Source: a virus
Taxonomy: Duplodnaviria > Caudoviricetes
Reading direction: 5' to 3' (one strand)
Virus record (IMG/VR): IMGVR_UViG_3300031732_000201
Span: 1 to 24,379 of that record
Length of the DNA stretch: 24,379 nt
Each line of letters starts with the position of its first letter. Position 1 is the first letter of the stretch. Below, one piece after another: positions 223-20,685 of this stretch. The notes beneath the pieces are model-generated. The model was not told where the DNA came from and made no database searches. It was given only the letters and a program-made list of their open reading frames with translations. The translations under genes were made by a program, and so were the position numbers.

Positions 223-464
223 CGACGTGGGTACTTCGGGCCGACGACGGCTACGGCTGCCACCTTGAGTCCGGGCTCCAGTACGTCTCCCTGTGTGGTC
301 GGACGTTCGATCCCGACGATGTCGATCGCGAGCGCTACGAAAACCCGTCGGATCATGATCACCCGCACGCCAGTCTCTGCTTTGACTGCCACACCGTGGG
401 GGTCGGCGGGGAGATCGATGAACTGCGCAGGGAGATCCACTTCGTCGGAGGTGCGTCGGCGTGA
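219..464 (+). CDS. Small Zn-binding protein (H...C...CxxC)
   Basis: GTG 219 preferred over 210: SD GGAGGTG at 206-212 and GTGA overlap; motifs GCHL, SLCGR, LCFDCH. Confidence 0.7.
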   Translation: MTTWVLRADDGYGCHLESGLQYVSLCGRTFDPDDVDRERYENPSDHDHPHASLCFDCHTVGVGGEIDELRREIHFVGGASA

Positions 465-3400
465 GAGACGAGGTTCCCGATGCGGTCGGCGAGGCCATCG
501 TCGACTGGACTAGCCAGAACGATCCTGTCTCCCGAGCAGAGTTTGACCGCCTCAACTCGGTGCTAATCCGGAGCGTCGGCGAGGCCGCTGAGCACGAAGA
601 GTACGGTCGCAACCAGCACCTCCGTCAGACTGATGCCGAGACAGCTGGGGTTTTCGCCTTCGACCACGACGTTGCGCTCGCCCGGCTGGACGACGACATT
701 GAGTACGTCGACCTCCACGGCTACGCCCTTGAGGAGGGATTTGTCCCGATCCTGGTCTGTCTGGCTGGCGACATAGACGACGTCGCCGATCGCCAGCATC
801 GCCTTTATCATCTCGTCGACAATACGTCACCCTGCGAGTGCAGGGCAGTGACCGATGGTGTTCCGCTCGAAGATTGCGTCTCTCGCTTCCTGGACCGCTA
901 CCCCGACGCGAGTATCCCGATGATCGCGGGCGGCGTCAATGCACCTCCGTCAGCGGTCGCGGAGGTCCTCGACGAGAATACCCCAGAATCGGGAGAACAT
1001 TCAAGTAGTAGAACCGGAGATCGCGTAAGCAGGCCGTTTTCGCGGTCGCGTCAGGACCGCCTTCGACGCTCGTGTAACACGGGGCAGTGGGAGGATGCTG
1101 ACTTCCCGACACCTGAGTCCGGCATTTTCCCACCGGGACAGTTCGAGCGCGTGCAGTGGATGGGACATCAGCAGAAGAAACCGTTCGCGCCGTGGGGCGA
1201 TCGCAATGCGCCGGCCCCGTGCTCGAAGAACCATCATCCCGAGACTGCGGCCGACTGCGAGTGCGATGCCCGATATAAGTGGGGCTACGACGGCCACTAT
1301 CTCGACGGAAAAACAGCCCAGATGGCCGAGGTCGATCCCCGACTCGATGGATTGGCGTACATCCAACTGCCCGACGACCCCTACGTCTACGTTGACGGCG
1401 ATGACGTTCGGGACCCGGAGACTGGCGACGTCCACCCGGCGCTCATCGCAATTCTCGAACATCTGGGGCTGACCTACGCCGACGTCTCCCAATCAGGAAA
1501 GGGTGTCCACGCGATCTACAAGGGTGACCTCCCCGACGGGGTCAAACAGGCCAGCTGGCGACTTGACGAGGATCCGTGGGAAAGCAACGAGGACCTCCCC
1601 TCCATCGAAGTGTATCCCGGCAAGCGCGTCTGTGTGATGACCGGCGCTCACGTCCCCGGGACGCCGACCGAGATCGCCGAGTGGAATGACGACGTCCTCG
1701 ACGCCCTCTTGGAAGCCAACGATCAGGTCGCGATCAACCAGCGAGATAACGCTGATCGCGACGATGTGTTGACGGCACGGGAGGACTACGATCTTGAGGA
1801 CTACGAGCCCGCAGCGACAGCGTCCTCGGAGACGACCGACGACATCCGAGACGTCTTCGCGGCGCTCGACCGGTTGGACGCTCGCCGAGTCGCCGAACGG
1901 ACGATCATCCACCGCTGGAACGACGACGCCTCGACGAGCGACGGCTACCGCGCGTTCTACCCCACCTGGGGGAAGACCTCGAACGGGACCGCGAACGTCG
2001 TCAACGACCAGATCTGGCAGGACACCGGCGACCTCGGCGGCTACGGCGGTCCGGTCGTCATGTCCCTTATTGACATTGGCGAGATGCGGCCCTCGAACGC
2101 CTCCCCCCGGAAGGCAACCGGCCGACTGTGGTTCCAGGGCATCGAGCACCTCCAGGACCTCGGCTTCGACATCCCGACCCTGGTGCCGCCGACACCCGAC
2201 TCCGAATCGGCGAACAGCGAGTGGACCGTTGAGGAGTGTGAGCCGCCGCCGCGGGACGCCGAGACGTTCGACCGCGAACAGCGCTGGGCCGAGCTGCAGG
2301 GCGAGCGCTTCGACGATGTCCTCGAGCACGACGGCATCGACCTTTGGAGTGACGAGGCGGGCGCCGGGAAGACCACGAATGCTCCCCTCGGCGCCCTCAA
2401 GCGCGACCAGGGCCACGCCATCTACTTCGACAAGCACGAGAAGGCCCGCGAGTTCACCAAGGACGACGCGATCCAGGACTTCGAGGGCGACGCCTTACAG
2501 GACGCCGAGTACTTCCACATGAAGGGCGGCGAGCAGAAGCGCCACGGCCACTGCATGGACGCCGATCACGCCGACGAGGACTGCCCCGAGCACGGCCACC
2601 CCTCGCAGTGCCCATCGATGTGCCCGATCTACGACCTCGACCCCGAGCACGAGACCCGGCAGGCCTACGAGGCCCTCGTCCGCGAGGTCGGCCCGAACAA
2701 GGCCCACCAGATCCTCGACCTCCACGAGGCGGGCGAATACGAGTGGCACGGCGAGGAGTGCGCCTGGCAGGCGCAGTACTCCGCGGTCGAGAGCGAGCCC
2801 TTCGTCGTCGGCGTCCACCCGTATGTCATCCAGAAGAGCGTCCGCTCTGGGCTGAACATCATCGACGAGACGCCCGACCTCCACTCTCGGGAGACGACGG
2901 CGGGCCCGACCGAGCTGACGCGCATCGCGAACACGCTCGAACGCATCGCCGATCTCCGGGCCCGCGACGACCCGGTCGCGTACACCGCTCGCGAACTCGC
3001 TCGGTTCACCCGCGACGTCGTCGACGTCATCGCCGACGTCGAGAACGCCGACGGCCTCAAGGATCTCACGGCGCCGACCATCACTTGGAACGCCTACGAG
3101 ACCTATGACGACGCCGCCGGACACTATCTCGAGCAGGAGCAGCCCGAGGGGGACTGGCAGCTCGCCGAGGCGCTCGCGAAGGCGAAGGTCGCCCACGGCG
3201 AGACCGTCCTCACCCGGATGCAGAACGACAACTGGGAGGGGACGCCCATCTCAATCGACGCGGTGCTCGCCGCCGCGGTCGAAGCCGGGCTCGACGAAGA
3301 GCCCGTCATGCAGGCGGTCGCCCTCTCCCCGATCATCGACAACTGCCCCTGGTGCCATGGGGAACTCAAGCACCACAATGGGGCCCGCTGCTGCGCGAGC

Positions 3401-4768
3401 GACGACTGCGACTGGCACGAGGCCGAGCATGCCCTCATCCACCAAGGCGCCGAGCCCGCCCGCGCCAGCGCGTGGTTCGCGACCGACCCATCCGACGCGA
3501 TCGTCGCGCTCCGCTACCGCGAGCTTCCCCTCACCTCCGAGCTCCCCGCCCCCGAGGACACGCTTGTCCTGGACGCGACCGCGACCCCTGATAAGGTCGC
3601 GACGCTGTTCGGCGTCGACCGCGATGAGGTCCGCGTCGCCGGCGACGATCCCCTCGAAATCCCGAACCTCCACACGACGCAGGTCCTCGACGGCCAGTAC
3701 CACGCCGGCACCATCCGCAGCGCCCTCGAGGACGACGGCTCGCTCGCGGGGCGCATCCAGCGCGCCATCGACACGGCGGCCGACGTCCACGAAAAGCCCC
3801 TCTACATTGTGAAGAGCGACCTCATCCCCGAGTTCGACTTCCCAGAGCGCGGCGAAGTCCTCCACTACCACGCGACCCGCGGCTTGAACCGGAACGACTG
3901 CGACGCCGTGATGTGCATCGGCGCGCCTCACCCCGACGTCGAGGACCTCAAGCGGGACGCCCAGCTGCTCGCGATGGCTCGCGACGATGTCGCCGCCGGC
4001 GGCGCCGAGCACTCGACGCGGCGCGGCGCCGAGAACCCTCCGGTCTACCGGAAGCTCCACTATGAGGACGACGCCGGCCGCGGGCGTGCCGTCCCGACGA
4101 AGCACTACACCGGCCTAGTCGGCACGCTCTTTCGGGAGTCCCGGGAGAAGGAACTCGTCCAGGCACTCCACCGCATCCGCCCCCTGATTGCCGACGAGGC
4201 GAAGCACGCCTACCTCCTGACGAACGTCCCGACCGAGATCCCCGTCGACGAGCCTGCGACGTTCGAGGACCTCGCCGATCCCCTTGAGGCGATTATCGAC
4301 GTCCCCTCCGGCGCGGTCGACCTGCTGAAGGCGACCCACGACGTCGTCGCCGGCGACGGCCCGAACGGGTTCCGCGCTGGGCAGCTCGTCGAGGAGTGCG
4401 ACGGCGTCGTCTCGAACAAGGTCGACGGCTACTACCGGCTCGCCCAGCTGTCCGGCCTGGACGTCTCGAAGCGCACGGTCTACAACTGGGTGAACGCGCT
4501 CAAGGAGGTCGGCCTCCTACGGCCCGAAGGATACGAACAGCACGCTGGGGTGTCCTACGCAGTCGATACTGCTACTTTGAAATCGGCCCTATCGGTGCTC
4601 TCCCATAACGGTGGCTTCAAAGTAGCCGCAGTCCGGCGCTTCCGCCGCATAATCGCCGATTCGACGTCTGGGTTCGACTGGCTGGAGTGGGCCCGCGACG
4701 CTTTCACCCTCCAGGGCAACGGGGAGATCGCCGATTCGCCTCCGGCCGGGGGTGGGTTGGGGACGTGA
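461..4768 (+). CDS. Replication protein: AEP-type primase-polymerase fused to SF2 (XPD/DinG-like) helicase and C-terminal wHTH
   Basis: AEP motifs YVDGDD, SQSGKGVH, IEVY-x-GKRVCVMTG; Walker A EAGAGKTT; Walker B NIIDETP; VLDATAT (III), TRGLN (V), QALHRIR (VI); C-terminal SGLDVSKRTVYNWVNALKEVGLL; SD GGAGGTG 447-453. Confidence 0.8.
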   Translation: MRDEVPDAVGEAIVDWTSQNDPVSRAEFDRLNSVLIRSVGEAAEHEEYGRNQHLRQTDAETAGVFAFDHDVALARLDDDIEYVDLHGYALEEGFVPILVCLAGDIDDVADRQHRLYHLVDNTSPCECRAVTDGVPLEDCVSRFLDRYPDASIPMIAGGVNAPPSAVAEVLDENTPESGEHSSSRTGDRVSRPFSRSRQDRLRRSCNTGQWEDADFPTPESGIFPPGQFERVQWMGHQQKKPFAPWGDRNAPAPCSKNHHPETAADCECDARYKWGYDGHYLDGKTAQMAEVDPRLDGLAYIQLPDDPYVYVDGDDVRDPETGDVHPALIAILEHLGLTYADVSQSGKGVHAIYKGDLPDGVKQASWRLDEDPWESNEDLPSIEVYPGKRVCVMTGAHVPGTPTEIAEWNDDVLDALLEANDQVAINQRDNADRDDVLTAREDYDLEDYEPAATASSETTDDIRDVFAALDRLDARRVAERTIIHRWNDDASTSDGYRAFYPTWGKTSNGTANVVNDQIWQDTGDLGGYGGPVVMSLIDIGEMRPSNASPRKATGRLWFQGIEHLQDLGFDIPTLVPPTPDSESANSEWTVEECEPPPRDAETFDREQRWAELQGERFDDVLEHDGIDLWSDEAGAGKTTNAPLGALKRDQGHAIYFDKHEKAREFTKDDAIQDFEGDALQDAEYFHMKGGEQKRHGHCMDADHADEDCPEHGHPSQCPSMCPIYDLDPEHETRQAYEALVREVGPNKAHQILDLHEAGEYEWHGEECAWQAQYSAVESEPFVVGVHPYVIQKSVRSGLNIIDETPDLHSRETTAGPTELTRIANTLERIADLRARDDPVAYTARELARFTRDVVDVIADVENADGLKDLTAPTITWNAYETYDDAAGHYLEQEQPEGDWQLAEALAKAKVAHGETVLTRMQNDNWEGTPISIDAVLAAAVEAGLDEEPVMQAVALSPIIDNCPWCHGELKHHNGARCCASDDCDWHEAEHALIHQGAEPARASAWFATDPSDAIVALRYRELPLTSELPAPEDTLVLDATATPDKVATLFGVDRDEVRVAGDDPLEIPNLHTTQVLDGQYHAGTIRSALEDDGSLAGRIQRAIDTAADVHEKPLYIVKSDLIPEFDFPERGEVLHYHATRGLNRNDCDAVMCIGAPHPDVEDLKRDAQLLAMARDDVAAGGAEHSTRRGAENPPVYRKLHYEDDAGRGRAVPTKHYTGLVGTLFRESREKELVQALHRIRPLIADEAKHAYLLTNVPTEIPVDEPATFEDLADPLEAIIDVPSGAVDLLKATHDVVAGDGPNGFRAGQLVEECDGVVSNKVDGYYRLAQLSGLDVSKRTVYNWVNALKEVGLLRPEGYEQHAGVSYAVDTATLKSALSVLSHNGGFKVAAVRRFRRIIADSTSGFDWLEWARDAFTLQGNGEIADSPPAGGGLGT

Positions 4769-10737: not shown

Positions 10738-11817
10738 ATGGCTGTAAAGACTACCGTACGCGGCGACCTGAAAGCAAACCTCGCGAGCGTCGCGACTCGC
10801 CTCGGTGGTCTCGACGACGCCGACCCGGACGCGGTCGTCGCGCTGGCGCGAGCGGAACCGTCGGCGAACCGCGACCGCGCGCCGCCGGGACCGTCGGGGA
10901 CGAAGGCGATACAGACCGACTATCAGGCGGACGTCTTCAAGCGGTTCCGCCGACTGAAGGGCCTGATTCGAGAGACTATCGCGAAGAACGACGCGCTTCG
11001 CCTCACCAGCGATAGTTCGCCGGCGTCGCCGACGGCGCCGACGCCGCTCGAAGCGAACGAAGATGACGCCGGCTGGTGGAAGGCGTACGTCGAGGAACGT
11101 CGCGCCGGCGTCGTACAGGCGTCGCCGAGTAACGACTTCGACTTCCCCGACGACGGCGATAAAGTCGACGCCTTCCTGCGGTGGCTTCAGGAAGCGGAAG
11201 ACGACGAAGTTCTCGAAGTCTTCGAGCGGACGAACGCCGGCGACGTCGCCCGGCGGAACGAATGGCAGAACGTGTACGTCCGACGGGCGTACTCGAAGGG
11301 CGCGAAGTACGGGAACGCGCGGCTTCGAGAGCAGGGTCTCGACGTCGACGCCGTCGACGCGCAAGCGCTGTTTAACAAGCCGATACACGCCGACGCCCTC
11401 GGGATTCTCCATACTCGCAACTTCCGCGAACTTCAGGGGATAACCGAGGCGATGGACCAGCAGATATCGCGGACACTCGCCGACGGCTTCTCGCAGGGGT
11501 TTAACTCCCGGAAGATGGCACGCGAGGTCAACGACCGCGTCGACAAAATCGGCTTAACGCGAGCGCGGACGCTAGCCCGGACCGAGACGATACACGCTCA
11601 CAGCGAGTCGACACTGAACCGGTACGAGCAGATAATGGGGCCGGACGCGGAAGTCACCGGTCGCGCCGAGTGGGAGACCGCCGGCGACTCGCGAGTCTGC
11701 CCGATCTGCGCCGGACTCGAAGGAACGACGCGCTCGCTCGACGACGCGCGCGGACTGATACCGATACACCCGAACTGCCGGTGTACGTGGCTACCGGTGG
11801 TGTCGTCCGCGTCGTAA
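10738..11817 (+). CDS. Head morphogenesis/minor head protein (SPP1 gp7 / Mu gpF-like)
   Basis: RARTLARTET, WETAGDSRVCPIC, PIHPNCRC. Confidence 0.93.
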   Translation: MAVKTTVRGDLKANLASVATRLGGLDDADPDAVVALARAEPSANRDRAPPGPSGTKAIQTDYQADVFKRFRRLKGLIRETIAKNDALRLTSDSSPASPTAPTPLEANEDDAGWWKAYVEERRAGVVQASPSNDFDFPDDGDKVDAFLRWLQEAEDDEVLEVFERTNAGDVARRNEWQNVYVRRAYSKGAKYGNARLREQGLDVDAVDAQALFNKPIHADALGILHTRNFRELQGITEAMDQQISRTLADGFSQGFNSRKMAREVNDRVDKIGLTRARTLARTETIHAHSESTLNRYEQIMGPDAEVTGRAEWETAGDSRVCPICAGLEGTTRSLDDARGLIPIHPNCRCTWLPVVSSAS

Positions 11818-12297
11818 CCGGCGACTCGACCTCGACGCCCGATGACACCGACCGCGCCGGCGCCGGTCGGTTGAGGGAACAAGCGCCGGTATCTCCCCGC
11901 CTCAACCCGCGAACCAGAATCGCTCGCCAACTCCCGAGGTGGTACTCGGTCAACGCCGCCGTTCCACCGCCGCAACGTCGGCGACGTGGAACGTCTCGGC
12001 GGCGTTCGAGCGGTCGGCGGGAGTTGGAAGCGCAAACCCCACCGCTCCCGACCCCTTCGAGGTATAGTTCGACGCGGAGAACAACGCGGTCCGCGACACG
12101 AAGGCGCAACATCTCGACGGCTTTCCGTACCTTCTGGTGCCGGAAGCCAGTACGTCGAGGCGACCGGGTTCGAGTCCCGGCGCGGACGTCCGCCGCGCCC
12201 TCGAGGGTTCAAGTTTCTCATCCGGCGTGGCACTCCCGATGACCGACGGCGTAACCCGCCGCCGTTTGCGAGGGTCGAGCGGGTTCGCGACGCGACT
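11818..12297 (+). ncRNA. Candidate large structured RNA / structured intercistronic leader (two K-turns, long hairpin, tRNA-like domain)
   Basis: 480-nt gap with many manually identified helices, several containing + strand G-U pairs; ends bracketed by complementary segments. Confidence 0.65.
12089..12188 (+). ncRNA. tRNA-like element (not a canonical tRNA)
   Basis: Acceptor GTCCGCG/CGCGGAC; T-arm CCGGG-TTCGAGT-CCCGG; 4-nt variable linker; extended stem CTCGACG/CGTCGAG in place of the anticodon arm; no D-stem. Confidence 0.7.
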
Positions 12298-14181
12298 ATG
12301 AACGCGAAACCAGAAGCGGTCCGGTACCTCGACGTCGACGGTAGCACTCGGCGGTTCGCTACCAACGACGGCGATTACTACGGGACCGTCACGATACAGG
12401 TCGAACCCGACCCCGGAGCGGTCGAGGTTCGAGAGCTCCGGGGCAAGAAGCATCTCGTCGCCCCGGTGGTCGCGGTCGCGGAAGGTATCTTAAATGGCGG
12501 CTTCCTCCCGTTCAGGGAGATAGCGAAGTCCGCCCCCGGCTGGAACGGCGTTCCGGTCACGGTCAACCACCCGGAAGACGACGACGGGAACTTCGTTCCG
12601 GCGAATCAACCGACGACGCTCGAACGTTACCAAATCGGGCAGTTACTGAACATCGAGGCGAATCAGGAGAAACAGGCCCTTACGGGCGAACTCTGGATAA
12701 ACCTCGATGAAATCAAGTGGCTGGTCGAGAACGCCGACCGCCTCGGCGAACTCGCGAAACTCGCGGTCGAGAAGATACGAGACGGCGACCCTCTCGAAGT
12801 CTCGACCGGGTACTGGCACGGCGAGGTACAGGACTCGGGCCGGTTCGACGGCGAGCAGTACGACCGGACGCAGGTCGATCTGCTACCGGACCACCTCGCC
12901 GTGCTTCCGAACGCCGAAGGCGCCTGTAACTGGGAAGGCGACTCGACGACCGTTGGGTGCGGCGCACCGCGAACGAACGCGACGCCCGCCCGGAACGTCG
13001 TCGGCGTCGGCGCTGGCGCGTTCGCCGCGAACTCGACGACCGTTCGAGCGGCGTTCGAGACCGGTATCGACACGGCGTTGATACCGGACTCGCTCGACGC
13101 GACCGACGTCGTCGAGGCGAACCTGCTCGACTCGGCGCGACCCCCCGAGTATTCGGGGACATCGTCGAGCGAGTGGTCGCGACCGTCGCTGGCGGACTTC
13201 GCCGACGCGAACGGTTGGGACGACGTCGATAGCGTCGACGACCTGACCGGCGACCAGCGAACGACGCTCGCGATGCACTCGCTACTCGGCGACGCCGACG
13301 CCGATACGTTCGTCGACGCTACGTTTTTCCCCGTGGTCTCGGCGAGCGGCGACCTGAACGAAAACGCGCTCGACGCGGTCGTCTCGGGTCGCGGCGCGCA
13401 GGCTGACGTCAGCGAGTCGCAGCTCGAAAGCGCTCGCGGCGTCGCCCGGTCGCTACTCGAAGACGAGTTCGACCGAGACCTCGACGACAACGTCGACGGC
13501 TGGCGAGCGACGGCGGCAAACGCCTTCCTTCGGACGCTCGGCATCGACGCCGACGTCCGCTCGCTCGCCGACGCCGACGCCGGACCGGTCGGCGCGAGAG
13601 ATACCGACGCGACCGAGGTATCGTACGCCGTTCACGCGGCGAACTGTAACTGCGGTGGCTGTACCCACGAACCTATGGGAAGCAACGACCCGAACGACCG
13701 ACTCGAACGCCTCGCGAACTCGACCGAGTTCACGGTCGAGGAACTGCGCGAGATGGACGACGACGTCGTCGACAAGATCGACGAATCGCTCAAACAGAAC
13801 AAAGACGCGGACGGCGGTGACGGCGGCGACGGCGGTAGCGGTACCGACGACGACCCAACGCCTGACGCCGTACAGGAGCTCGAACAGAAGATCGACGCGC
13901 TCGAAGACCGTCTCGACGAGCAGAACGAAAACCGTCGCGACGAACTCGTCGAGGCAATCACGTCGCAGACGCGGATGGACGAAGACGACCTCGACGATAT
14001 CGGCGTTCTCGACGATGTCGAAGCGCTCGAACGCGTCGCCGAGAAGTTCGGCGCGCAGGTCGAGACCGTTCCGAACTACGGCGGCCGCGCCGCCGGTACC
14101 AACGAAAGCGACCCGGACGACCTCGAGGTCGAGGTCGGCGGGTACTTCCACGGTCAGGAAGACGAAGGGAGCGCTGACTGA
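12298..14181 (+). CDS. Prohead protease (DUF2213-like) fused to a middle domain and acidic coiled-coil scaffold
   Basis: WNGVPVTVNHP, EVSTGY, PDHLAVL...GAC; C-terminal coiled coil; ATG 12298 preferred because the 11986 extension is Arg-rich and overlaps structured RNA. Confidence 0.85.
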   Translation: MNAKPEAVRYLDVDGSTRRFATNDGDYYGTVTIQVEPDPGAVEVRELRGKKHLVAPVVAVAEGILNGGFLPFREIAKSAPGWNGVPVTVNHPEDDDGNFVPANQPTTLERYQIGQLLNIEANQEKQALTGELWINLDEIKWLVENADRLGELAKLAVEKIRDGDPLEVSTGYWHGEVQDSGRFDGEQYDRTQVDLLPDHLAVLPNAEGACNWEGDSTTVGCGAPRTNATPARNVVGVGAGAFAANSTTVRAAFETGIDTALIPDSLDATDVVEANLLDSARPPEYSGTSSSEWSRPSLADFADANGWDDVDSVDDLTGDQRTTLAMHSLLGDADADTFVDATFFPVVSASGDLNENALDAVVSGRGAQADVSESQLESARGVARSLLEDEFDRDLDDNVDGWRATAANAFLRTLGIDADVRSLADADAGPVGARDTDATEVSYAVHAANCNCGGCTHEPMGSNDPNDRLERLANSTEFTVEELREMDDDVVDKIDESLKQNKDADGGDGGDGGSGTDDDPTPDAVQELEQKIDALEDRLDEQNENRRDELVEAITSQTRMDEDDLDDIGVLDDVEALERVAEKFGAQVETVPNYGGRAAGTNESDPDDLEVEVGGYFHGQEDEGSAD

Positions 14182-14183
14182 CA

Positions 14184-14693
14184 ATGTCGGAAAACACGGT
14201 CATCCTGAACGGTAACATCGTTTCGTTCGCCGCCGACGAAGCGGACGCCGCGAGCGGCGAGACGGATATCACCCCCGGTCACTTCATCGACCTCGACTCG
14301 AACGGCGAAGCGAACCTTCAGTCGGGCGAGGCGACGACCGGACGCGGTCTGATGGCGACGCTTCCTCGCGACGCTTTCGGTCGCGGGAAGTCCGACAAAT
14401 ACAACACCGACGACGACGGCGAGCGCGTTCACTACGCGCACGTCCCGGTCGGCGGCGAGTTCGACGGCTTCCTCGCCGCCGGCGGCGACCTCACGACGGC
14501 GGCGAACGCGAACGTCACCGAGAACGACCTACTCGTTGAGACGGACAACGGCGCGCTCGCGAACTTCTCCTCGGCAGAGACCTCGGGAACGCCCGAGGGC
14601 GCGCTGTACCGCGCACAGGAGTCGGTCGACAACAGCGGCGCCTCGGCTGGCGTCGATAATCAGGTCCGCATCGAAGCGGAACGAATCGCGTAA
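14184..14693 (+). CDS. Capsid decoration/cement protein
   Basis: Between protease and MCP; 169 aa, G/A-rich beta-type sequence (ITPGHFI, GDLT...LLVETDNGAL). Confidence 0.7.
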   Translation: MSENTVILNGNIVSFAADEADAASGETDITPGHFIDLDSNGEANLQSGEATTGRGLMATLPRDAFGRGKSDKYNTDDDGERVHYAHVPVGGEFDGFLAAGGDLTTAANANVTENDLLVETDNGALANFSSAETSGTPEGALYRAQESVDNSGASAGVDNQVRIEAERIA

Positions 14694-14695
14694 CA

Positions 14696-15808
14696 ATGTC
14701 TGCAATCGAAGTGATGGACGAAGGCGGCGTCGACTCCGCCGATAGTCTCTCGGGCGGTAGTGGTATCGCGTACCAGAAACTCGTCGCGCACAGCCAACTG
14801 CGGCTGGCGCGGTATCGGGACGACGAAGAACTCGAACGACAGGCGAAGCAGACGCTCGCCGCGTACCAGAAGCAGGTGTTCAACCGAGGTCTCACCGGGA
14901 ACGACCAACTTCGGAAGGACGAATGGCGGCGGATGAACGACGTCCTGACCGCCGTCGCTCGCGACAACACCATCGGTATCGACACGCTTCGAGACCGTGG
15001 TATCGAAGTGCCGCTCGACCTCGGCGTGACCCGCTTCGAGTGGGGAGACGTCGACCAGTTCGGCGATGCCGAGGTCGACATGGCGGCGACGACCGGCGGC
15101 GGCGAAGACACGCTGAACTACACGAACAACGGCATCCCGCTCCCCATCGTTCACAAGTCGTTCAAAGTGAACTTGCGGAAACTCCGATCTTCGCGGAACC
15201 GAGGCCAGCCCATCGACACCGCCGGCGTCGAGGCGGCGACGGTCGCGGTCGCGCGAAAACTCGAAGACATCCTGTTCGGCGGGAACAGCATCACCGTCGA
15301 AGGCGACTCGGTCGCCGGGATGACGGACTTCACCGACCGCGAAACGGTGTCGGGGAACGCGACGTGGGACGGGGCGAGCGCTGACAACATGATCGACGAC
15401 GTGATGAGTACGGTCGAAGCGCTCGAAGACGCTCGAGCGTTCCCCGGTCAGTCCGGGTACGACTTCTTCATCCACCGCGGCAACTATCAGGAGGTCCGGG
15501 CGAAGAACGCCGGGACGGACGACAAGCGCGGCGTTCTGGAACTCCTGCGCGACCGGCTGGAACAGGAGGCAGATCTGCCGAACTCCATCCGGTTCTTCCC
15601 GTCCGACCGACTCAGCGACGGGAACGCGGTGATGGTGAAGCCGACCGAGCGGCACGTCCAGATGCCGACCGCCGCCGACATCCAGACCGTCCAGTGGGAG
15701 TCGATGGGCGGGATGGTCCAGCACTGGAAGGTGATGGGTAGCGTGATGCCGGCGCTTCGGTCCGACCAGAGCGGGAACAGCGGCGTCGCGCACCTGTCCG
15801 GTCTCTGA
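14696..15808 (+). CDS. Major capsid protein (HK97 fold, Linocin-M18/encapsulin-like branch)
   Basis: Position; 370 aa; LRKDEW, PLPIVHKSFKVNLRKL, VARKLEDILFGG, KVMGSVMPALRSD..GNSGVAH. Confidence 0.88.
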   Translation: MSAIEVMDEGGVDSADSLSGGSGIAYQKLVAHSQLRLARYRDDEELERQAKQTLAAYQKQVFNRGLTGNDQLRKDEWRRMNDVLTAVARDNTIGIDTLRDRGIEVPLDLGVTRFEWGDVDQFGDAEVDMAATTGGGEDTLNYTNNGIPLPIVHKSFKVNLRKLRSSRNRGQPIDTAGVEAATVAVARKLEDILFGGNSITVEGDSVAGMTDFTDRETVSGNATWDGASADNMIDDVMSTVEALEDARAFPGQSGYDFFIHRGNYQEVRAKNAGTDDKRGVLELLRDRLEQEADLPNSIRFFPSDRLSDGNAVMVKPTERHVQMPTAADIQTVQWESMGGMVQHWKVMGSVMPALRSDQSGNSGVAHLSGL

Positions 15809-15819
15809 GGTACTCGAAG

Positions 15820-16473
15820 ATGAGTAAATTAGTCCGGGTTAGGCGAGGGCGGCATCGGCGCGCGAGCGGCGAAGTCTTCGAGGAAGGCGAGGTGTTCAAG
15901 GCGACCGAGACGGAGCTTGACGCGTTCGGCGACCGGTTCGAGCCCGTCGAGGAAACCGACGCGGGCGTCGAAGCGGTCGACCAGCGAACGACTGCCGCCG
16001 ACGGACCGGCGGAAGCCGGCGAGTACCGACTCGTACGAGGCGGGACGCACCACGCCGGCGACCACGTCGTTCAGGAAGGTGAAACCGTTCACCTGTCAGA
16101 AGCCGACGTCAAGGCGTTCGGCGACAAGTTCGAGCGCGTTGACGACGCCGACGGCGCCGACGACGCCGACGATGAAGCGGACGGTAAAAGTGAAACTGGA
16201 ACCGAGTCGAGCGAGAGCGACGTGCAGAGCGGTTCCGGTTCCGAGGCGACCGAGGGCTCGGACGGCGACGAAGACGACGACGTCGCGAGCGAGAACGATA
16301 CGGACGACGCCGACAGCGGCGAGACGGAAGTCGAGACCGACGCCGGCGAGATATCGGCGGACCTTCCCGACGACTATCGCGAGCTCCAGACGCTCGCGAA
16401 GGATGTCGGTATCGACGCACGACAGTCGAAGGCAGAACTCAAAGAGCAACTGCGAGACCGTCGCGAGGCGTAA
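15820..16473 (+). CDS. Post-capsid protein with two N-terminal repeats, acidic linker and C-terminal HeH/Rho_N-like domain
   Basis: Repeats ending AFGDRFEPV / AFGDKFERV; DYRELQTLAKDVGIDARQSKAELKEQL. Confidence 0.75.
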   Translation: MSKLVRVRRGRHRRASGEVFEEGEVFKATETELDAFGDRFEPVEETDAGVEAVDQRTTAADGPAEAGEYRLVRGGTHHAGDHVVQEGETVHLSEADVKAFGDKFERVDDADGADDADDEADGKSETGTESSESDVQSGSGSEATEGSDGDEDDDVASENDTDDADSGETEVETDAGEISADLPDDYRELQTLAKDVGIDARQSKAELKEQLRDRREA

Positions 16474-16476
16474 CCG

Positions 16477-16851
16477 ATGGTGACGCTGGAATCGGGACTC
16501 GACGCCGACGTCAGCGACCTCGACACGATCTTCGACAGCGACCTCGACGACGACGCCAAGAAGTTCTGGTTGAACGTCGCGTACGACTTCCTCGATAACC
16601 GCCTCGACTGGTCGAAGTTCTCGACATCCGAAAAGAAGCGGATGGAAGCGGTCGGCGCCGCCGACGCCGCGTCGAGTCAAGACCCGCGTATCTACCGCGA
16701 GACCGTCGGCGACGCCGACTTCCGGTACCAGCGCGACCTGAACGACACCGATTACTGGAACTGGCTGGTCAACCTCGACCATACAGGGCAACTCCCGACC
16801 GAGAAGGGCGCGCCGGGCGTCGAGTTCAAGACCTTCGGACCGGGCCGATAA
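16477..16851 (+). CDS. Putative head-tail adaptor
   Basis: Position, 124 aa, helical N-half then RETVGDADFRY and TDYW...LDHTG. Confidence 0.7.
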   Translation: MVTLESGLDADVSDLDTIFDSDLDDDAKKFWLNVAYDFLDNRLDWSKFSTSEKKRMEAVGAADAASSQDPRIYRETVGDADFRYQRDLNDTDYWNWLVNLDHTGQLPTEKGAPGVEFKTFGPGR

Positions 16852-16853
16852 CG

Positions 16854-17195
16854 ATGACCGGGATGAACGTACTCGGGGTCGCCGATACGATAGAGGCGTT
16901 CACGTCGCTGAAGAACGCGGCGCTCGACGGCCGAGACGCCGTATATATCGTCGGGACGAACGTCGAGTACGCGGCGTACGTCGAGTTCGGAACGTCGACG
17001 CAGGAAGCGCAACCGTACCTTCGACCGGCGGTTCGACGCGTCGCGCGGAACCCCGGTAAGCACGTCGGCGACATCGACTCGACCGGCGAAATGGTACGGA
17101 AGATCGCGCTCGCTATCGAACGCCTCGCGAAGCAGGACGCGCCAGTCGATACCGGTCAGCTTCAGAATAGTATCGAAGCCGAGAGGGTTCGCTGA
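16854..17195 (+). CDS. HK97 gp10-like neck/tail-completion protein, motif order permuted
   Basis: VGTNVEYAAYVEFGT, QPYLRPA, APVDTGQLQNSI. Confidence 0.88.
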   Translation: MTGMNVLGVADTIEAFTSLKNAALDGRDAVYIVGTNVEYAAYVEFGTSTQEAQPYLRPAVRRVARNPGKHVGDIDSTGEMVRKIALAIERLAKQDAPVDTGQLQNSIEAERVR

Positions 17196-17566
17196 TGGTT
17201 CGATCTGCTGCGCGTCGAGCGCTATCTCGCGCCGGTCGCGACATCTCGCTATCGAACCGCGAGAAAATCGGCGAAGACGATTACGGGCCGAACTTCGACG
17301 AGACGACCGACTCGCCGCATACGGTAACGGCGAGAGTCGACCGCGATACATCTGCCGAGGTCGTTCGCGACTCGTCGGGTAGCGAGGTCCGCGTCGACGC
17401 CGATATCCTCATCGAAGACGATACCGCCGCCGTGAACGACGGACTCGACGACGGCGGGCATAAAGGCGCGTCGCGCGTCGACGTCGACGGCGAGACGTAC
17501 GTCGTCGTCCAAATCGACCGGCAGGATAACGGACTGCTTCGCCTCGAAACAGCGAGGAAAGACTGA
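17195..17566 (+). CDS. Putative head-closure protein (SPP1 gp16-like)
   Basis: Position, 123 aa, beta-rich, C-terminal VDVDGETYVVVQID; TGATG coupling. Confidence 0.7.
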   Translation: MVRSAARRALSRAGRDISLSNREKIGEDDYGPNFDETTDSPHTVTARVDRDTSAEVVRDSSGSEVRVDADILIEDDTAAVNDGLDDGGHKGASRVDVDGETYVVVQIDRQDNGLLRLETARKD

Positions 17567-18063
17567 TGGCACGGGAACCGCGCGAACGACTGGTTCTCGA
17601 ACTCCTGAAGGACGACTGGGGGAACGGCGACGTCGACGACTTCGGTATCACGCCGAAGATATCCTTCGGGTGGTTCGAGGAAGACGTCGACCAGCCGCAG
17701 GTGACGGTCGGTCAGCCTGAAGAATCGCCCGTCGACGGCGGGCAGACCGGGTACTCGCATATCTCGGCGGACGGCGACCCCGGTCAGACCGTCGGCGGGA
17801 GTATTGACGTTCACGTCTGGTCGTCGACTGACGACCTCGACGCGCAGAACGCGTCGACGGCGAACCCTCGCGAATTCAACGAACGCGCTTGCGAGGAAGT
17901 GCAGCGTATCGTCAGCGCGAACGCGGCGAGTCCGACGAACCCCGCGACAGGGAACGACCCGGTCTCGTCGATAGCGTACGACGGACGCCAGCCGGTACCG
18001 GAACCGGACCGTGACGATGTCTTCCATTACGTCGCAATCGTACAGTACGGGTACGAAGACTAA
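17566..18063 (+). CDS. Putative tail terminator
   Basis: Position upstream of tail tube; PQVTVG, IDVHVWS, EEVQRIV pattern; TGATG coupling. Confidence 0.65.
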   Translation: MAREPRERLVLELLKDDWGNGDVDDFGITPKISFGWFEEDVDQPQVTVGQPEESPVDGGQTGYSHISADGDPGQTVGGSIDVHVWSSTDDLDAQNASTANPREFNERACEEVQRIVSANAASPTNPATGNDPVSSIAYDGRQPVPEPDRDDVFHYVAIVQYGYED

Positions 18064-18280
18064 CGAGGGCCGAAACCCCTCGCTTCGTCCCGAAACGGAC
18101 TGCTGGACGGCGGTTTTCACCACTTGATCTCGGGGTAACGCGGTGCGAACGCTGGTCCAGCACGGCGAAAACCGGCGTCGATCTTCGCGGGTCGGCGTCG
18201 CGACCGGATGCAAACCGGTCGGCTTTGTCTCGCGCCGGGAACGCAACGCCCGGCTTGCGGCGAAGTAGTTACCGCCGATA
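18064..18280 (+). ncRNA. Candidate structured RNA: array of about 8 adjacent hairpins
   Basis: Stems at 18064-82, 18087-100, 18101-162, 18163-74, 18174-99, 18201-21, 18234-54, 18258-77; recurrent YGNAA loops. Confidence 0.6.
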
Positions 18281-18305
18281 GCAGCGGGTGCAGATACAAC
18301 CTGAA

Positions 18306-18524
18306 ATGTGGATACAGAACACCGACTCCGAGACGTATCCGACCGAGTCGTTCAGCGACGAGTACCTGACGGACGGCGAGACGGTCGAGTTCACCGAGAA
18401 CTGGACGGCGAACGTCAGCGAAGATGTCGCCGATCGTCTCGTCGAGGAAGTCGACCACATCGGACCGTACGACGCCGACGACGATGTCGGCGACGAACCG
18501 ATCAGCGACACCAACGACAACTAA
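18306..18524 (+). CDS. Small acidic protein preceding tail tube
   Basis: ATG 18306 (in frame with track ORF 18288); VEFTENWTANVSEDVADRLVE; TAA-CAA-ATG junction. Confidence 0.7.
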   Translation: MWIQNTDSETYPTESFSDEYLTDGETVEFTENWTANVSEDVADRLVEEVDHIGPYDADDDVGDEPISDTNDN

Positions 18525-18527
18525 CAA

Positions 18528-19829
18528 ATGAGTACGAAAGCAGAAAGCGGACTGCGGAACCACCGCCCCGAGTTCGTTCGCGAGAACGTCGATAGCGACG
18601 GCGACCCGACGACGCCGAGCGACCCGTCGTTCGAGAAGCCGAGTGACCGAGTCTACAACATCGACCCCGGCTTCGGTCCTGGTCTCGAAGCCGAGCGAGG
18701 TCTCGGCGACGTCGACGCGGACGAACACGAGAAGGGGCCGGAAGAACACGAACTGACTATCGAGTACGCGCTTCAGCGCTGGTTCGTCGACTCGAACGCC
18801 GACCCGCTCGACCTTGCCGGCGACGGCGTGACTCGCGACAGCGACGGGCTACTGCCGAACACCCATACGTTCCTTGACCGCGAGGACAAGGGAACCGTCG
18901 CCGCGATGTCGACCGTCGAAGGACAGGTCAACGGTAAGAGCGGCGCGACCGGGAAGTTGACGCGTATCTTCACCGTCGGGAAGGGCGGGAAGATCGCCGA
19001 CGTCACGCTGACGGTCGACCCCGGCGACCAACAGCCGGCGCGCGTCGAGGTCACGTACCAGTTCGAGAAGATGCGGCGGTATCAGGTCGACCAGCCGGAC
19101 TCGGAGACGCTACACGTCCAGTCGACCGACTCGAACGATACGAGTCAGACGCTCACCATCGAAGACGACGGCGCGAACACGACCGAAGATATCTCGCTGA
19201 ACGGGACGACCGCCGTCGCGACGACGTCGAACTTCGACGATATCGACGTTCTCGAACTCGACGCCGAGACGGACGGCGACATCGAGGTATACGACGACGA
19301 CGCCGGTAGCCCCGGCGAACTGCTCGCCGTTCTCGACGGCGCCGACTCGTACGACGGTATCGAGGGCGACCATGGTATCCCGGCGCTCGGGAGCGGCAGT
19401 CGCGCGTCGGCTATCGGGAACGACTACCTGCGGACGCTGACCGACTCGATTACACGCGGCGGGAGTTCCGACTACTGGTTCGAGATTAACAGTAAGGAAC
19501 TCTCGATTGATAACGGTCTCTCGACGCAGATGCGGGACGACTCGCTTCGGATGCGGATACAGGAAGGGACTCGTGAGACCGAAATGTCGGTCTCGACGTA
19601 CGGCGAGACGCAGTCATACACCGATATCCGTCGGTCGCTGACGAACGACGGCGCCGACATCGTCTGGACGTTCCCGGACGTCACGACCGGTCAGGGAACA
19701 ATTACCCTGTCGACGGCGAAGCTCACCGACCCCGGCACCGGACCGTACGAAGCGGAACAGTCCCAGATGACTATCGACGAGACGTTCGCGCCGGAAGGCG
19801 GCGGGACGAGCGCGCTGACTATCGCGTAG
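18528..19829 (+). CDS. Major tail (tube) protein
   Basis: Between terminator and chaperone/tape measure; beta-rich T/S/D composition; 433 aa suggests an accessory domain. Confidence 0.78.
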   Translation: MSTKAESGLRNHRPEFVRENVDSDGDPTTPSDPSFEKPSDRVYNIDPGFGPGLEAERGLGDVDADEHEKGPEEHELTIEYALQRWFVDSNADPLDLAGDGVTRDSDGLLPNTHTFLDREDKGTVAAMSTVEGQVNGKSGATGKLTRIFTVGKGGKIADVTLTVDPGDQQPARVEVTYQFEKMRRYQVDQPDSETLHVQSTDSNDTSQTLTIEDDGANTTEDISLNGTTAVATTSNFDDIDVLELDAETDGDIEVYDDDAGSPGELLAVLDGADSYDGIEGDHGIPALGSGSRASAIGNDYLRTLTDSITRGGSSDYWFEINSKELSIDNGLSTQMRDDSLRMRIQEGTRETEMSVSTYGETQSYTDIRRSLTNDGADIVWTFPDVTTGQGTITLSTAKLTDPGTGPYEAEQSQMTIDETFAPEGGGTSALTIA

Positions 19830-19878: not shown

Positions 19879-20388
19879 ATGGCGAGTAACACCGACACCG
19901 AGACCGAGACGGACGAACCGACCGAGAAAACGACCGACGAGCAGATCGGCGTCGACGACGTCGACCTCAGCGACGGGAAGCCGCCGGGAGGCGCTATCGC
20001 AAGCGAGGAAGACTTCAAAGTCAAGCGCGACCCGGACGACGACCAACCGCTTCCCGTGTGGGAAAAAGTGCCGGGGAAGGACAAGTACGTCGAGGTCGTT
20101 CCAGCGCGGCAGGGCGACGCCGAGAAGTGGCTACCCGAGTCCGGCGACCCGAACGATATGTCGGACCGCGAGATGGTCGAGGTTATCAACCGGTTCTTCG
20201 CGACGCCGGACTTCGACCTCGACCCACGGAACGCCGAGGAAGAACTCGAAGACTTCCTCGCGTTCGGCGTGACGCCGCTTATCGTCGCGTGGTACAACGC
20301 GAGCGGGTTCGAGATGAGTCGCGGGATGGTGATGGATAACGCCGAACTGCTCGAACTCGTCGAGGGAAATACGAGCAGTGGCAGTTAG
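19879..20388 (+). CDS. Tail assembly chaperone (gpG-like)
   Basis: Between tube and tape measure; slippery heptamer near the 3' end. Confidence 0.8.
   Translation: MASNTDTETETDEPTEKTTDEQIGVDDVDLSDGKPPGGAIASEEDFKVKRDPDDDQPLPVWEKVPGKDKYVEVVPARQGDAEKWLPESGDPNDMSDREMVEVINRFFATPDFDLDPRNAEEELEDFLAFGVTPLIVAWYNASGFEMSRGMVMDNAELLELVEGNTSSGS
20364..20370 (+). other. -1 programmed ribosomal frameshift site G GGA AAT
   Basis: X XXY YYZ correctly phased (GAG GGA AAT); -1 frame open to 20660. Confidence 0.85.
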
Positions 20389-20660
20389 AGGCGCGCGCCG
20401 AGTGGGTACTCCACGAAGCCGGGTACGCGTTTACCGAGTCGCGGACGATATCGTCGCTGACGATGCCCGAGATACGGCGCCTGCTCGAAGGCCAGCGCGT
20501 ACATACCGAGATTCAGCAGAAACTCAGGCAGGCGTCGGGGAAGAACGACCCGTCGACGTCGTCGACGTCGGCGTCGGACCTCGGCGGAAAGGCGTTCCCG
20601 CGAGCGTCAGATCGACAGAAACTTCGGGAGTTCGACCGCCGAGTCAGCGAGGAAAAATGA
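20364..20660 (+). CDS. Frameshift extension of tail chaperone (gpGT-like)
   Basis: -1 frame reads KYEQWQLEARAEWVLHEAGYAFTESRTISSLTMPEIRRLLEG…, in frame with track ORF 20463..20660. Confidence 0.8.
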   Translation, partial: GKYEQWQLEARAEWVLHEAGYAFTESRTISSLTMPEIRRLLEGQRVHTEIQQKLRQASGKNDPSTSSTSASDLGGKAFPRASDRQKLREFDRRVSEEK

Positions 20661-20685
20661 AACTAACCCGACAGGATAGGTAACG

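What the first reader, a model, noticed from the sequence alone, without database searches (positions are those of the whole stretch)
11808..18305. Two structured-RNA cassettes punctuate the late operon upstream of the capsid block and the tail tube: candidate RNA-based stoichiometry/processing system
Seen: from 5.8 kb on, genes overlap or are separated by about 50 nt or less, except gaps 11818-12297 and 18064-18305. Both are almost fully occupied by helices, with G-U pairs favouring + strand RNA, and I see no AT-rich TATA box in either. Known: capsid, scaffold, decoration and tube proteins are needed in far more copies than terminase, portal or neck proteins; archaeal L7Ae binds K-turns; RNase P and tRNase Z cut tRNA-like folds. 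Inference: the virus may cut its late transcript at a tRNA mimic and protect the products with K-turn RNPs and hairpins to boost high-copy genes, or may release stand-alone ncRNAs. I know no description of this in archaeal viruses but cannot search.
Basis: partly seen in the sequence, partly recalled or inferred. Interest (0 to 1): 0.85.

Follow-up and report, generated by a model that had tools for sequence, protein, structure and literature searches.

The report
Halovirus tRNA mimic before capsid genes
A group of salt-loving archaeal viruses keeps a tRNA-shaped sequence with no fixed anticodon, followed by a kink-turn hairpin, just ahead of the capsid-building genes; it likely lets host tRNA-trimming enzymes cut the long viral message there, a trick I did not find described for archaeal viruses.

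Summary
The window is a haloarchaeal tailed virus. Both gaps exist. Gap 1 (11818-12297, gp7 to prohead protease) holds a real conserved RNA fold: a tRNA-like cloverleaf at 12089-12187 (7-bp acceptor, small D-arm, a third arm of free length with no anticodon, canonical T-arm), then a hairpin and a K-turn hairpin (12235-12274). The T-arm lies upstream of the protease gene in 10 of 10 contigs with protease identity of 61% or more (6 sequence types) and in 0 of 36 more distant contigs. Acceptor and D-stem change on both sides in 5 of 16 pairs; a model found a held-out homologue at E 4e-7. Rfam and ARAGORN miss it. Best reading (0.5): a viral 't-element' cut by host RNase P and tRNase Z, giving the protease-decoration-capsid message its own protected 5' end. 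Cleavage, expression and any effect on gene dosage are untested. Gap 2 (18064-18305) is hairpin-rich and unusually unchanged in its only homologue, but has no tRNA mimic or K-turn; it is not shown to belong to the same system.

The parts
10738..11817 (+). SPP1 gp7 / Mu F-like minor head protein gene (upstream neighbour)
   Evidence: PF04233 E 8e-16
11838..11877 (+). K-turn hairpin 1: 3-bp C-stem, 3-nt bulge, tandem G.A/A.G, 3b.3n = C.U, 8-bp NC stem
   Evidence: window, L002; L015; motif ends only in L003, L004; absent in L007
11892..11902 (+). conserved pyrimidine tract; may pair with a G-rich stretch after K-turn 2 (long-range helix, inferred) or act as terminator tract
   Evidence: present in 6 of 6 types; 7-bp complement in L003 and L004 with one two-sided change, 5 bp in window (read by eye)
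11919..12014 (+). middle domain: conserved closing helix (11919-11926 with 12007-12014) around a long hairpin (11952-12006) of variable sequence; less well supported
   Evidence: motif in all 6 types, changed in L015; 5 of the 6 pairs broken between window and L002 lie in this half of the gap
12089..12188 (+). tRNA-like element: acceptor 12089-12095/12181-12187, D-arm 12097-12108 (only 2 of 4 pairs in the window, 4 of 4 in L002, L003, L004, L007), third arm 12112-12160 without anticodon, T-arm 12164-12180, discriminator position 12188
   Evidence: held-out L007 found by model R1
12192..12231 (+). hairpin directly after the acceptor stem (8-bp stem; here it carries a second T-loop-like hairpin 12203-12219)
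   Evidence: a hairpin of other sequence at this place in L003, L004, L007; none in L015
12235..12274 (+). K-turn hairpin 2, 3b.3n = C.C, ending 23 nt before the protease ATG
   Evidence: 6 of 6 types (scan demanded 3b = C), 4 of 6 (no such demand); C-stem and NC stem change sequence and stay paired
12298..15808 (+). prohead protease/scaffold (DUF2213), decoration-position gene and major capsid protein: the downstream block
   Evidence: the 14184-14693 gene had no family hit and is named by position
18064..18305 (+). gap 2: run of hairpins with a terminator-like stem plus T-rich tail at 18201-18221 and a weak TATA-like hexamer at 18266-18271; function open, not shown to belong with gap 1
   Evidence: 0 substitutions in 241 nt against L056
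18306..19829 (+). small conserved ORF (18306-18524) and putative tail tube gene (18528-19829)
   Evidence: (phrog_34360, unknown function); 'tube' is by position before chaperone and tape-measure genes

Best explanation
Gap 1 encodes a conserved tRNA-shaped RNA element with a K-turn hairpin behind it, which likely acts as a processing signal: host RNase P would cut the late transcript before 12089 and host tRNase Z would cut after 12188. Shown by sequence comparison: the cloverleaf, the K-turn motifs, their fixed place before the protease gene, and the lack of a conserved anticodon or discriminator. Inferred: (1) the region is transcribed on the + strand within the late operon; (2) the two host enzymes cut it; (3) the downstream message (protease/scaffold, decoration, capsid) then starts with about 4 unpaired bases, a hairpin and a K-turn that folds and binds host L7Ae, which shields the new 5' end; the upstream message ends in a structured domain; (4) this uncouples the life-time of capsid-block mRNA from terminase/portal/gp7 mRNA and raises its share. 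Step 4 is the weakest. Gap 2 is most simply a terminator/promoter or stability region for the tail-tube block and is a separate matter.
For: Conserved exactly what RNase P and tRNase Z read: a 7-bp acceptor with G1-C72 stacked on a 5-bp T-stem with a canonical T-loop in 5 of 5 well-formed types, and GG in the D-loop; free to vary what aminoacylation and decoding read: third arm encloses 4 to 49 nt, discriminator G/A/A/G/U. 76 of 78 cells pair (97.4%); 5 of 16 pairs change on both sides, 2 of 500 shuffles reach that, slid controls 31-48% paired. Unconstrained folds give four-arm cloverleaves in L002, L003, L004, L007. Held-out L007: 47.5 bits, E 3.6e-7 in 1.29 Mb. T-arm within 700 nt upstream of the protease in 10 of 10 close contigs, 0 of 36 distant ones; it stays with the protease when other genes are inserted after gp7 (L007, L015). 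K-turn 2 in 6 of 6 types against a background of 0.38 per kb (28 in 73 kb). Window vs nearest relative: substitutions at 14 of 206 paired and 32 of 243 unpaired positions, Fisher p 0.03. No promoter-like hexamer at a constant distance before the element, so its 5' end would need processing. Position 74 is U in 5 of 5, fitting the recalled dislike of tRNase Z for C74 (recalled; search found 0 papers). Haloferax RNase P and tRNase Z process t-elements in vivo (PMC4326828, passages). True tRNA genes sit inside the late region of two more distant relatives.
Against: No RNA data bear on it. Only 6 sequence types; 3 of the 5 two-sided changes involve L007 or a single lineage, the T-stem never varies (5 of 5 pairs), the shuffle control ignores relatedness, and A10 was fitted to the acceptor/T structure. 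The window's own D-arm keeps 2 of 4 pairs, and an 11-nt insert offers a competing helix for its acceptor 5' strand in the whole-gap fold. L015 is divergent (4-bp T-stem, U1-A72, poor D-arm) and was not found by the model. Whole-gap MFE/MEA folds recover the acceptor stem only in L002 and L003. The element is missing from 36 of 36 more distant relatives, which need the same protein ratios. L007 has a TATA-like box just before the RNA domain, which could give the capsid block its own promoter with no need for cutting. Helices for the Fisher test were chosen by me from the window's fold.
Confidence: 0.5

Rival explanations
1. The product that matters is a stand-alone non-coding RNA: either the released tRNA mimic, or the whole ~390-nt domain closed by a long-range helix (11892-11902 with ~12276-12282), folded with K-turns as architectural kinks and acting as an RNP during infection or head assembly.
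For: The conserved region is far larger than a t-element needs (pyrimidine tract, middle helix, two K-turns); 7-bp end-to-end complementarity in L003 and L004 with one two-sided change; 3b = C in every K-turn seen predicts folding in metal ions alone (rule from PMC4382518, start of abstract), as in architectural K-turns.
Against: The long-range helix is only 5 bp in window/L002, imperfect in L007 and unclear in L015; arm lengths vary widely; the element is always in cis to the same gene; no Ro60 gene in 5 of 5 partial records. The 3b = C count is partly built into the scan.
Confidence: 0.2
2. The RNA stays uncut as a long 5' leader and controls translation or read-through of the capsid block, through L7Ae on K-turn 2 or a protein that reads the tRNA elbow.
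For: K-turn 2 ends 23-58 nt before the start codon and its 3' strand resembles a Shine-Dalgarno sequence in L003, L004, L007; the middle helix has alternative partners near the start codon in window, L002 and L007; L7Ae represses its own mRNA through a leader K-turn (PMC6298567, abstract).
Against: The distance to the start codon is not fixed and is too long to cover it; regulatory l7ae K-turns are of the type that cannot fold without protein (same abstract) whereas these have 3b = C; a 7-bp acceptor stacked on a T-arm would be hard to hide from RNase P.
Confidence: 0.15
3. Both gaps are ordinary terminator-plus-promoter regions; hairpins reflect 65% GC and the tRNA likeness is a decaying relic.
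For: Modest z-scores; TATA-like hexamers in window, L002, L007; terminator-like stem in gap 2 and TATA-like stretches in gap 2 of several relatives (read by eye). This is my preferred reading for gap 2.
Against: For gap 1 it does not explain two-sided changes in acceptor and D-stem, third arms of unrelated sequence that still pair (8-14 bp), or K-turn 2 in 6 of 6.
Confidence: 0.09
4. The tRNA-like piece is an attP site or an intron-bearing tRNA gene.
For: Halovirus HF2's tRNA-like gene is read as attP (PMC8707807, passages); the T-arm is conserved letter for letter.
Against: It is intact and internal in 3 records classed as proviruses; in G002 it lies about 28 kb from the integrase; integration there would split the head operon; both acceptor strands covary; no common anticodon and no bulge-helix-bulge in the third arm (by eye; L003's arm encloses 4 nt); tRNA model finds nothing in the window at E 10.
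Confidence: 0.06

Closest known systems
t-elements (Haloferax volcanii 5S rRNA leader; plant mitochondrial mRNAs)
   Same: tRNA-like fold without a decoding role, embedded in a longer transcript next to the RNA whose end it would define; same host enzymes (PMC4326828 and PMC3296008, passages; PMC1920247, abstract).
   Different: Viral, inside a protein-coding late operon, full four-arm cloverleaf with a free third arm, coupled to K-turn hairpins; cleavage not shown.
mascRNA/menRNA of MALAT1 and MEN-beta
   Same: tRNA mimic cut by RNase P and RNase Z next to a structured, protected end (PMC4919922, passages). Small D-arm and no true anticodon (recalled).
   Different: There the upstream lncRNA is the protected product (triple helix); here K-turn hairpins flank the mimic and the downstream RNA is an mRNA.
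tmRNA tRNA-like domain
   Same: Acceptor plus T-arm, GG-bearing D-loop, long helix in place of the anticodon arm.
   Different: No G3.U70 (C3-G70 in 5 of 5), no encoded CCA, D-stem present, no tag frame or pseudoknots seen; ARAGORN and Rfam negative; archaea lack tmRNA (recalled).
Bacterial/phage Y RNAs (YrlA)
   Same: Non-coding tRNA mimic, one of which is cut by RNase P (PMC4201824, passages).
   Different: YrlA is circularly permuted (acceptor-like stem between T and D arms) and lies beside Ro60; here the order is that of tRNA and no Ro60 was found.
l7ae mRNA leader K-turn
   Same: K-turn hairpin in an archaeal mRNA leader.
   Different: That K-turn covers the ribosome binding site and needs L7Ae to fold (PMC6298567, abstract); these lie 23-58 nt upstream and have 3b = C.

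Membership tests
t-element (RNase P / tRNase Z signal) | acceptor-like stem stacked on a T-arm with canonical T-loop | tested here: met
   7 + 5 bp in 5 of 6 types; 7 + 4 bp with a bulge in L015
t-element (RNase P / tRNase Z signal) | not a decoding tRNA | tested here: met
   third arm encloses 4-49 nt, discriminator varies; ARAGORN 0 genes, RF00005 no match
t-element (RNase P / tRNase Z signal) | cleaved by RNase P and/or tRNase Z, RNA ends map to it | not testable with these tools
   needs enzyme assays or end mapping
K-turn | C-stem, 3-nt bulge, tandem G.A/A.G, NC stem | tested here: met
   K-turn 2 in 6 of 6, 4 of 6 under the stricter scan; K-turn 1 in 3 of 6 by scan, ends only in 2, absent in 1; A at 2n in L004 and L015, a known rare form (PMC3985660, start of abstract)
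K-turn | kinked fold and L7Ae binding | not testable with these tools
   host L7Ae family present in H. volcanii control, none in 5 of 5 viral records
canonical or intron-bearing tRNA gene | 7-nt anticodon loop, or bulge-helix-bulge intron | tested here: not met
   ARAGORN with introns at default threshold gave no call matching the element's ends
tmRNA | G3.U70 alanine identity, tag reading frame | tested here: not met
   C3-G70 in 5 of 5; ARAGORN and Rfam negative
Y RNA (YrlA) | adjacent Ro60 gene and permuted tRNA domain | tested here: not met
   0 of 5 partial records hold PF05731; Rfam negative; arm order is tRNA-like
attP site | beside the integrase, split on integration | tested here: not met
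   identity with a host tRNA 3' end was not tested
any Rfam family (ribozymes, GOLLD, ROOL, riboswitches) | covariance-model match | tested here: not met
   window: one chance hit elsewhere at E 0.62; homologue loci L070, L075, L106: none at the element

The most novel reading that the evidence does not exclude
The whole of gap 1 is a new ~400-nt viral RNA machine: a tRNA mimic held inside a K-turn-kinked, end-closed fold that is cut out of, or stays tethered between, the two halves of the head-gene message as an L7Ae RNP, and sets capsid-protein output or serves in prohead assembly; the invariant gap 2 is a second, unrelated RNA of the same virus.
Probability: 0.15. Interest if true: 0.9.

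Novelty: new variant of a known kind. Interest (0 to 1): 0.7.

Why it matters
If cut as predicted, this is tRNA punctuation of a protein-coding operon in an archaeal virus: a natural mRNA-embedded t-element, where the known haloarchaeal case sits before 5S rRNA. Long halovirus late transcripts have been reported to end up as shorter RNAs by processing of unclear origin (PMC8707807, passage); this element gives two exact cut sites and a K-turn to test. It would also be a ready-made part for setting RNA ends in Haloferax. Standard tools miss it, so more such elements may be hidden in viral gaps. Limits: one clade, six sequence types, no expression data.

Tried and rejected
Rfam and ARAGORN on the window: nothing in either gap. 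BLAST of the gaps against cultured phages and of the gap-1 core against plasmids: only short chance pieces. Protease scan of 185,579 genomes: no relative. Genome-wide pattern scan: 2 hits, one an ordinary tRNA by eye, one unrelated. Metagenome scan: 2 loci, both the L004 type. Viral pattern scans: one search gave only known loci; one search gave 3 known loci and 5 others (L071, L073 tRNAs; L072 an ARAGORN tRNA call; L074, L077 unexplained tRNA-like pieces). Gap-2 pattern scan: the known relative plus 3 unrelated hits; gap-2 DNA against G001-G005: only G001. Model R1 over 5 more distant viral records: nothing convincing. Sequencing runs: no RNA holder listed; laying three offered RNA runs gave only short partial pieces, one 41-nt piece with 8 differences in gap 1: no evidence either way. 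Gap 2 as CRISPR mini-array: no repeat family; as hammerhead: core does not fit (by eye). N-terminal GTG extension of the protease (11986) rejected by frame-breaking indels. ARAGORN at lowered threshold with introns was noise. The four-fold rate for the small ORF was computed one base off frame and is not used. Earlier scan findings: none. The original Haloferax 5S paper is not held. Supplements of PMC10690425: 6 files searched without a hit, 3 not searched.
Full report
Setting. The window is a whole 24,379-base virus record, 43% complete. Its genes run terminase, portal, two small genes, gp7/Mu F minor head protein, DUF2213 prohead protease, a decoration-position gene, major capsid protein, neck genes, a terminator-position gene, a small ORF, a putative tube, chaperones, tape measure (genes without a hit are named by position). 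The closest cultured relative is Halorubrum phage Hardycor1, 36% in the capsid protein and 41% in the tube; tube homologues occur in Haloferax and Halalkaliarchaeum. So it is a haloarchaeal tailed virus.

Observation. Both gaps exist: 11818-12297 and 18064-18305. A third gap of 118 nt precedes terL. Frame-breaking indels in the nearest relative show both gaps are non-coding. Folding energy alone says little: z -2.16 and -2.18; 10.8% of 250 windows outside the gaps reach z < -2. Rfam and ARAGORN find nothing.

Gap 1, homologues. Protein-anchored scans gave 46 distinct contigs, the window included, with a protease start region. A T-arm motif lies within 700 nt upstream in all 10 with protease identity of 61% or more and in none of the 36 at 45% or less (duplicate loci of one contig counted once). 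The 10 fall into 6 sequence types: window, L002, L003, L004 (with L005, L006, L068, L069), L007, L015. In L007 an HNH gene and another gene, and in L015 an HNH remnant, lie between gp7 and the RNA, which stays next to the protease.

Gap 1, tRNA-like element (12089-12187). Five types have a 7-bp acceptor with G1-C72, a 1-3 nt linker, a 4-bp D-stem with a 4-nt loop ending in GG, a third stem of 8-14 bp enclosing 4-49 nt, a 1-4 nt linker and an invariant 5-bp T-stem with a canonical 7-nt T-loop. The window itself keeps only 2 of 4 D-stem pairs. Unconstrained folding of the isolated elements gives four-arm cloverleaves in L002, L003, L004 and L007, with z from -0.6 to -4.2; window and L015 fold acceptor, third arm and T-arm but not the D-arm. 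On the model-fitted alignment of five types, 97.4% of 78 cells pair, 5 of 16 pairs change on both sides (3 acceptor, 2 D-stem; 2 of 500 shuffles reach this) and slid controls pair 31-48%; the sample is small, related, and the T-stem never varies. A model built from four types found the held-out L007 at E 3.6e-7 in 1.29 Mb but missed L015. The discriminator is G, A, A, G, U, position 74 is U in all five, no CCA is encoded and no anticodon is kept. In whole-gap folds the acceptor stem appears only in L002 and L003, so the cloverleaf rests on comparison and local folding.

Gap 1, K-turns and the rest. After the acceptor stem come about 4 bases, a hairpin (5 of 6 types) and K-turn 2, found in 6 of 6 types by a scan with a background of 28 hits in 73 kb, and in 4 of 6 by a stricter scan that did not demand 3b = C. 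Its C-stem and NC stem differ in sequence among types and stay paired. It ends 23, 23, 53, 49, 58 and 24 nt before the likely start codons. K-turn 1, just after the gp7 stop, is clear in window, L002 and L015, reduced to its end motifs in L003 and L004, and absent in L007, which has a TATA-like box there. All K-turns seen have 3b = C, which by the published rule permits folding in metal ions unless 3n is G, as in L007 (PMC4382518, start of abstract); A at 2n is a known rare form (PMC3985660, start of abstract). Between them lie a pyrimidine tract and a conserved helix around a variable hairpin; between window and L002, 6 changed pairs are kept, 2 gained and 6 broken, 5 of the broken ones in this middle half. 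Substitutions fall at 14 of 206 paired and 32 of 243 unpaired positions (p 0.03). A long-range helix from the tract to a G-rich stretch after K-turn 2 is 7 bp in L003 and L004 and weaker elsewhere; I treat it as a lead.

Mechanism. What is kept is what RNase P and tRNase Z read, and what varies is what synthetases and ribosomes read. In H. volcanii a t-element precedes 5S rRNA and is cut by tRNase Z, and t-elements placed around a crRNA are processed in vivo by RNase P and tRNase Z (PMC4326828, passages; PMC3296008, passages). t-elements set mRNA ends in plant mitochondria (PMC1920247, abstract), and MALAT1 is cut the same way (PMC4919922, passages). I therefore infer cuts before 12089 and after 12188, leaving the capsid-block mRNA with a hairpin and an L7Ae-bound K-turn at its 5' end (L7Ae would come from the host). 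That capsid, scaffold and decoration proteins are needed in hundreds of copies and portal in twelve is established knowledge; that this RNA serves that ratio is inference, and 36 relatives manage without it. Confidence 0.5; rivals: released or intact non-coding RNA 0.2, uncut regulatory leader 0.15, promoter/terminator with a relic 0.09, attP or tRNA gene 0.06. The attP reading fails because the element is intact inside three proviruses and about 28 kb from the integrase in G002.

Gap 2. It is a run of hairpins with no T-arm and no K-turn. Its only homologue has 0 substitutions in 241 nt and one inserted base; this is part of the longest substitution-free run, 356 nt, of a 16-kb comparison (next 268, in coding DNA). 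At 3.7% neutral divergence, the lowest four-fold rate of any gene here, the chance is 1e-4, but a recent exchange would look the same. Of 41 tube loci, 15 have a gap of 7 nt or less at this place, 12 have 62-424 nt (some miscalled), and 14 could not be measured. L015 has a 210-nt hairpin run of unrelated sequence. A terminator-like stem lies at 18201-18221 (4 found against 6.8 in shuffles, so not above chance). I read it as a terminator/promoter or stability region, open to being an RNA of its own; it is not shown to share a system with gap 1. Notably, L059 carries an intron-bearing tRNA call at this same position, and HATV-3 a true tRNA-Gln just after its capsid genes, so tRNAs inside late operons occur in this wider group.

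Novelty. Nine literature searches on the topic returned no description of a t-element or K-turn RNA in the structural operon of an archaeal virus; the library lacks most subscription papers. The HF2 and Hardycor1 papers treat tRNA-like sequences only as attP or weak tRNA genes (passages); Y RNAs differ in arm order and Ro60 linkage (PMC4201824, passages). A catalogue of 10,006 viral RNA candidates (PMC10690425, passages) gave no hit for four contig ids, one motif and DUF2213 in 6 supplementary files, but 3 files could not be searched, so a fragment may be listed there. It works like a t-element; membership awaits cleavage data. Verdict: new variant of a known kind, interest 0.7.

Noticed in passing
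L038:4526-4598 (HATV-3, MZ334527, about 13401-13473): A true tRNA-Gln (Rfam 53 bits) right after the capsid gene and gp18, not annotated in the GenBank stretch.
   Followed up: partly
L059:7882-8000: ARAGORN call of an intron-bearing tRNA directly after the tail-terminator-position gene, the place of gap 2 (called Glu, by eye it could be Gln; below Rfam's cut-off).
   Followed up: partly
L007:6420-7210; L015:3150-3395: An HNH endonuclease gene inserted at the 3' end of gp7 with the last codons of gp7 duplicated behind it; L015 holds a broken, internally deleted remnant. HATV-3 also has an HNH gene between gpF and protease.
   Followed up: partly
L077:2494-2599: A tRNA-like domain with a long insert, head-to-tail before tRNA-Asn in a phage tRNA cluster; no Rfam or ARAGORN call; model R1 E 1.3e-5, but it was picked by a similar pattern.
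   Followed up: partly
L074:2495-2590 (- strand): Another tRNA-like piece with an extended third arm near a tRNA-Phe gene; not called by ARAGORN or Rfam.
   Followed up: no
L016:21135-21269 (-); L017:19944 and 21251 (-): Further T-arm motifs, two of them in tandem in L016, outside the late operon.
   Followed up: no
L015:9542-9574; L007:7862-7896: Nearly the same 15-nt palindromic unit occurs twice in tandem in gap 2 of L015 and forms the third arm of the L007 element.
   Followed up: no
window 12641-12820, 13061-13180, 16361-16480: The strongest folding z-scores of the scan (-6.0, -5.0, -4.8) lie inside coding genes (protease, gene 15820-16473).
   Followed up: no
window 19879-20683: Chaperone ORF followed by an overlapping ORF in another frame before the tape-measure gene, the usual frameshift arrangement (frameshift recalled, not tested).
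   Followed up: no
window 461-4768: 1435-aa protein with a primase-like segment (PHROGs E 6e-12 at residues 291-446) and no Pfam hit.
   Followed up: no
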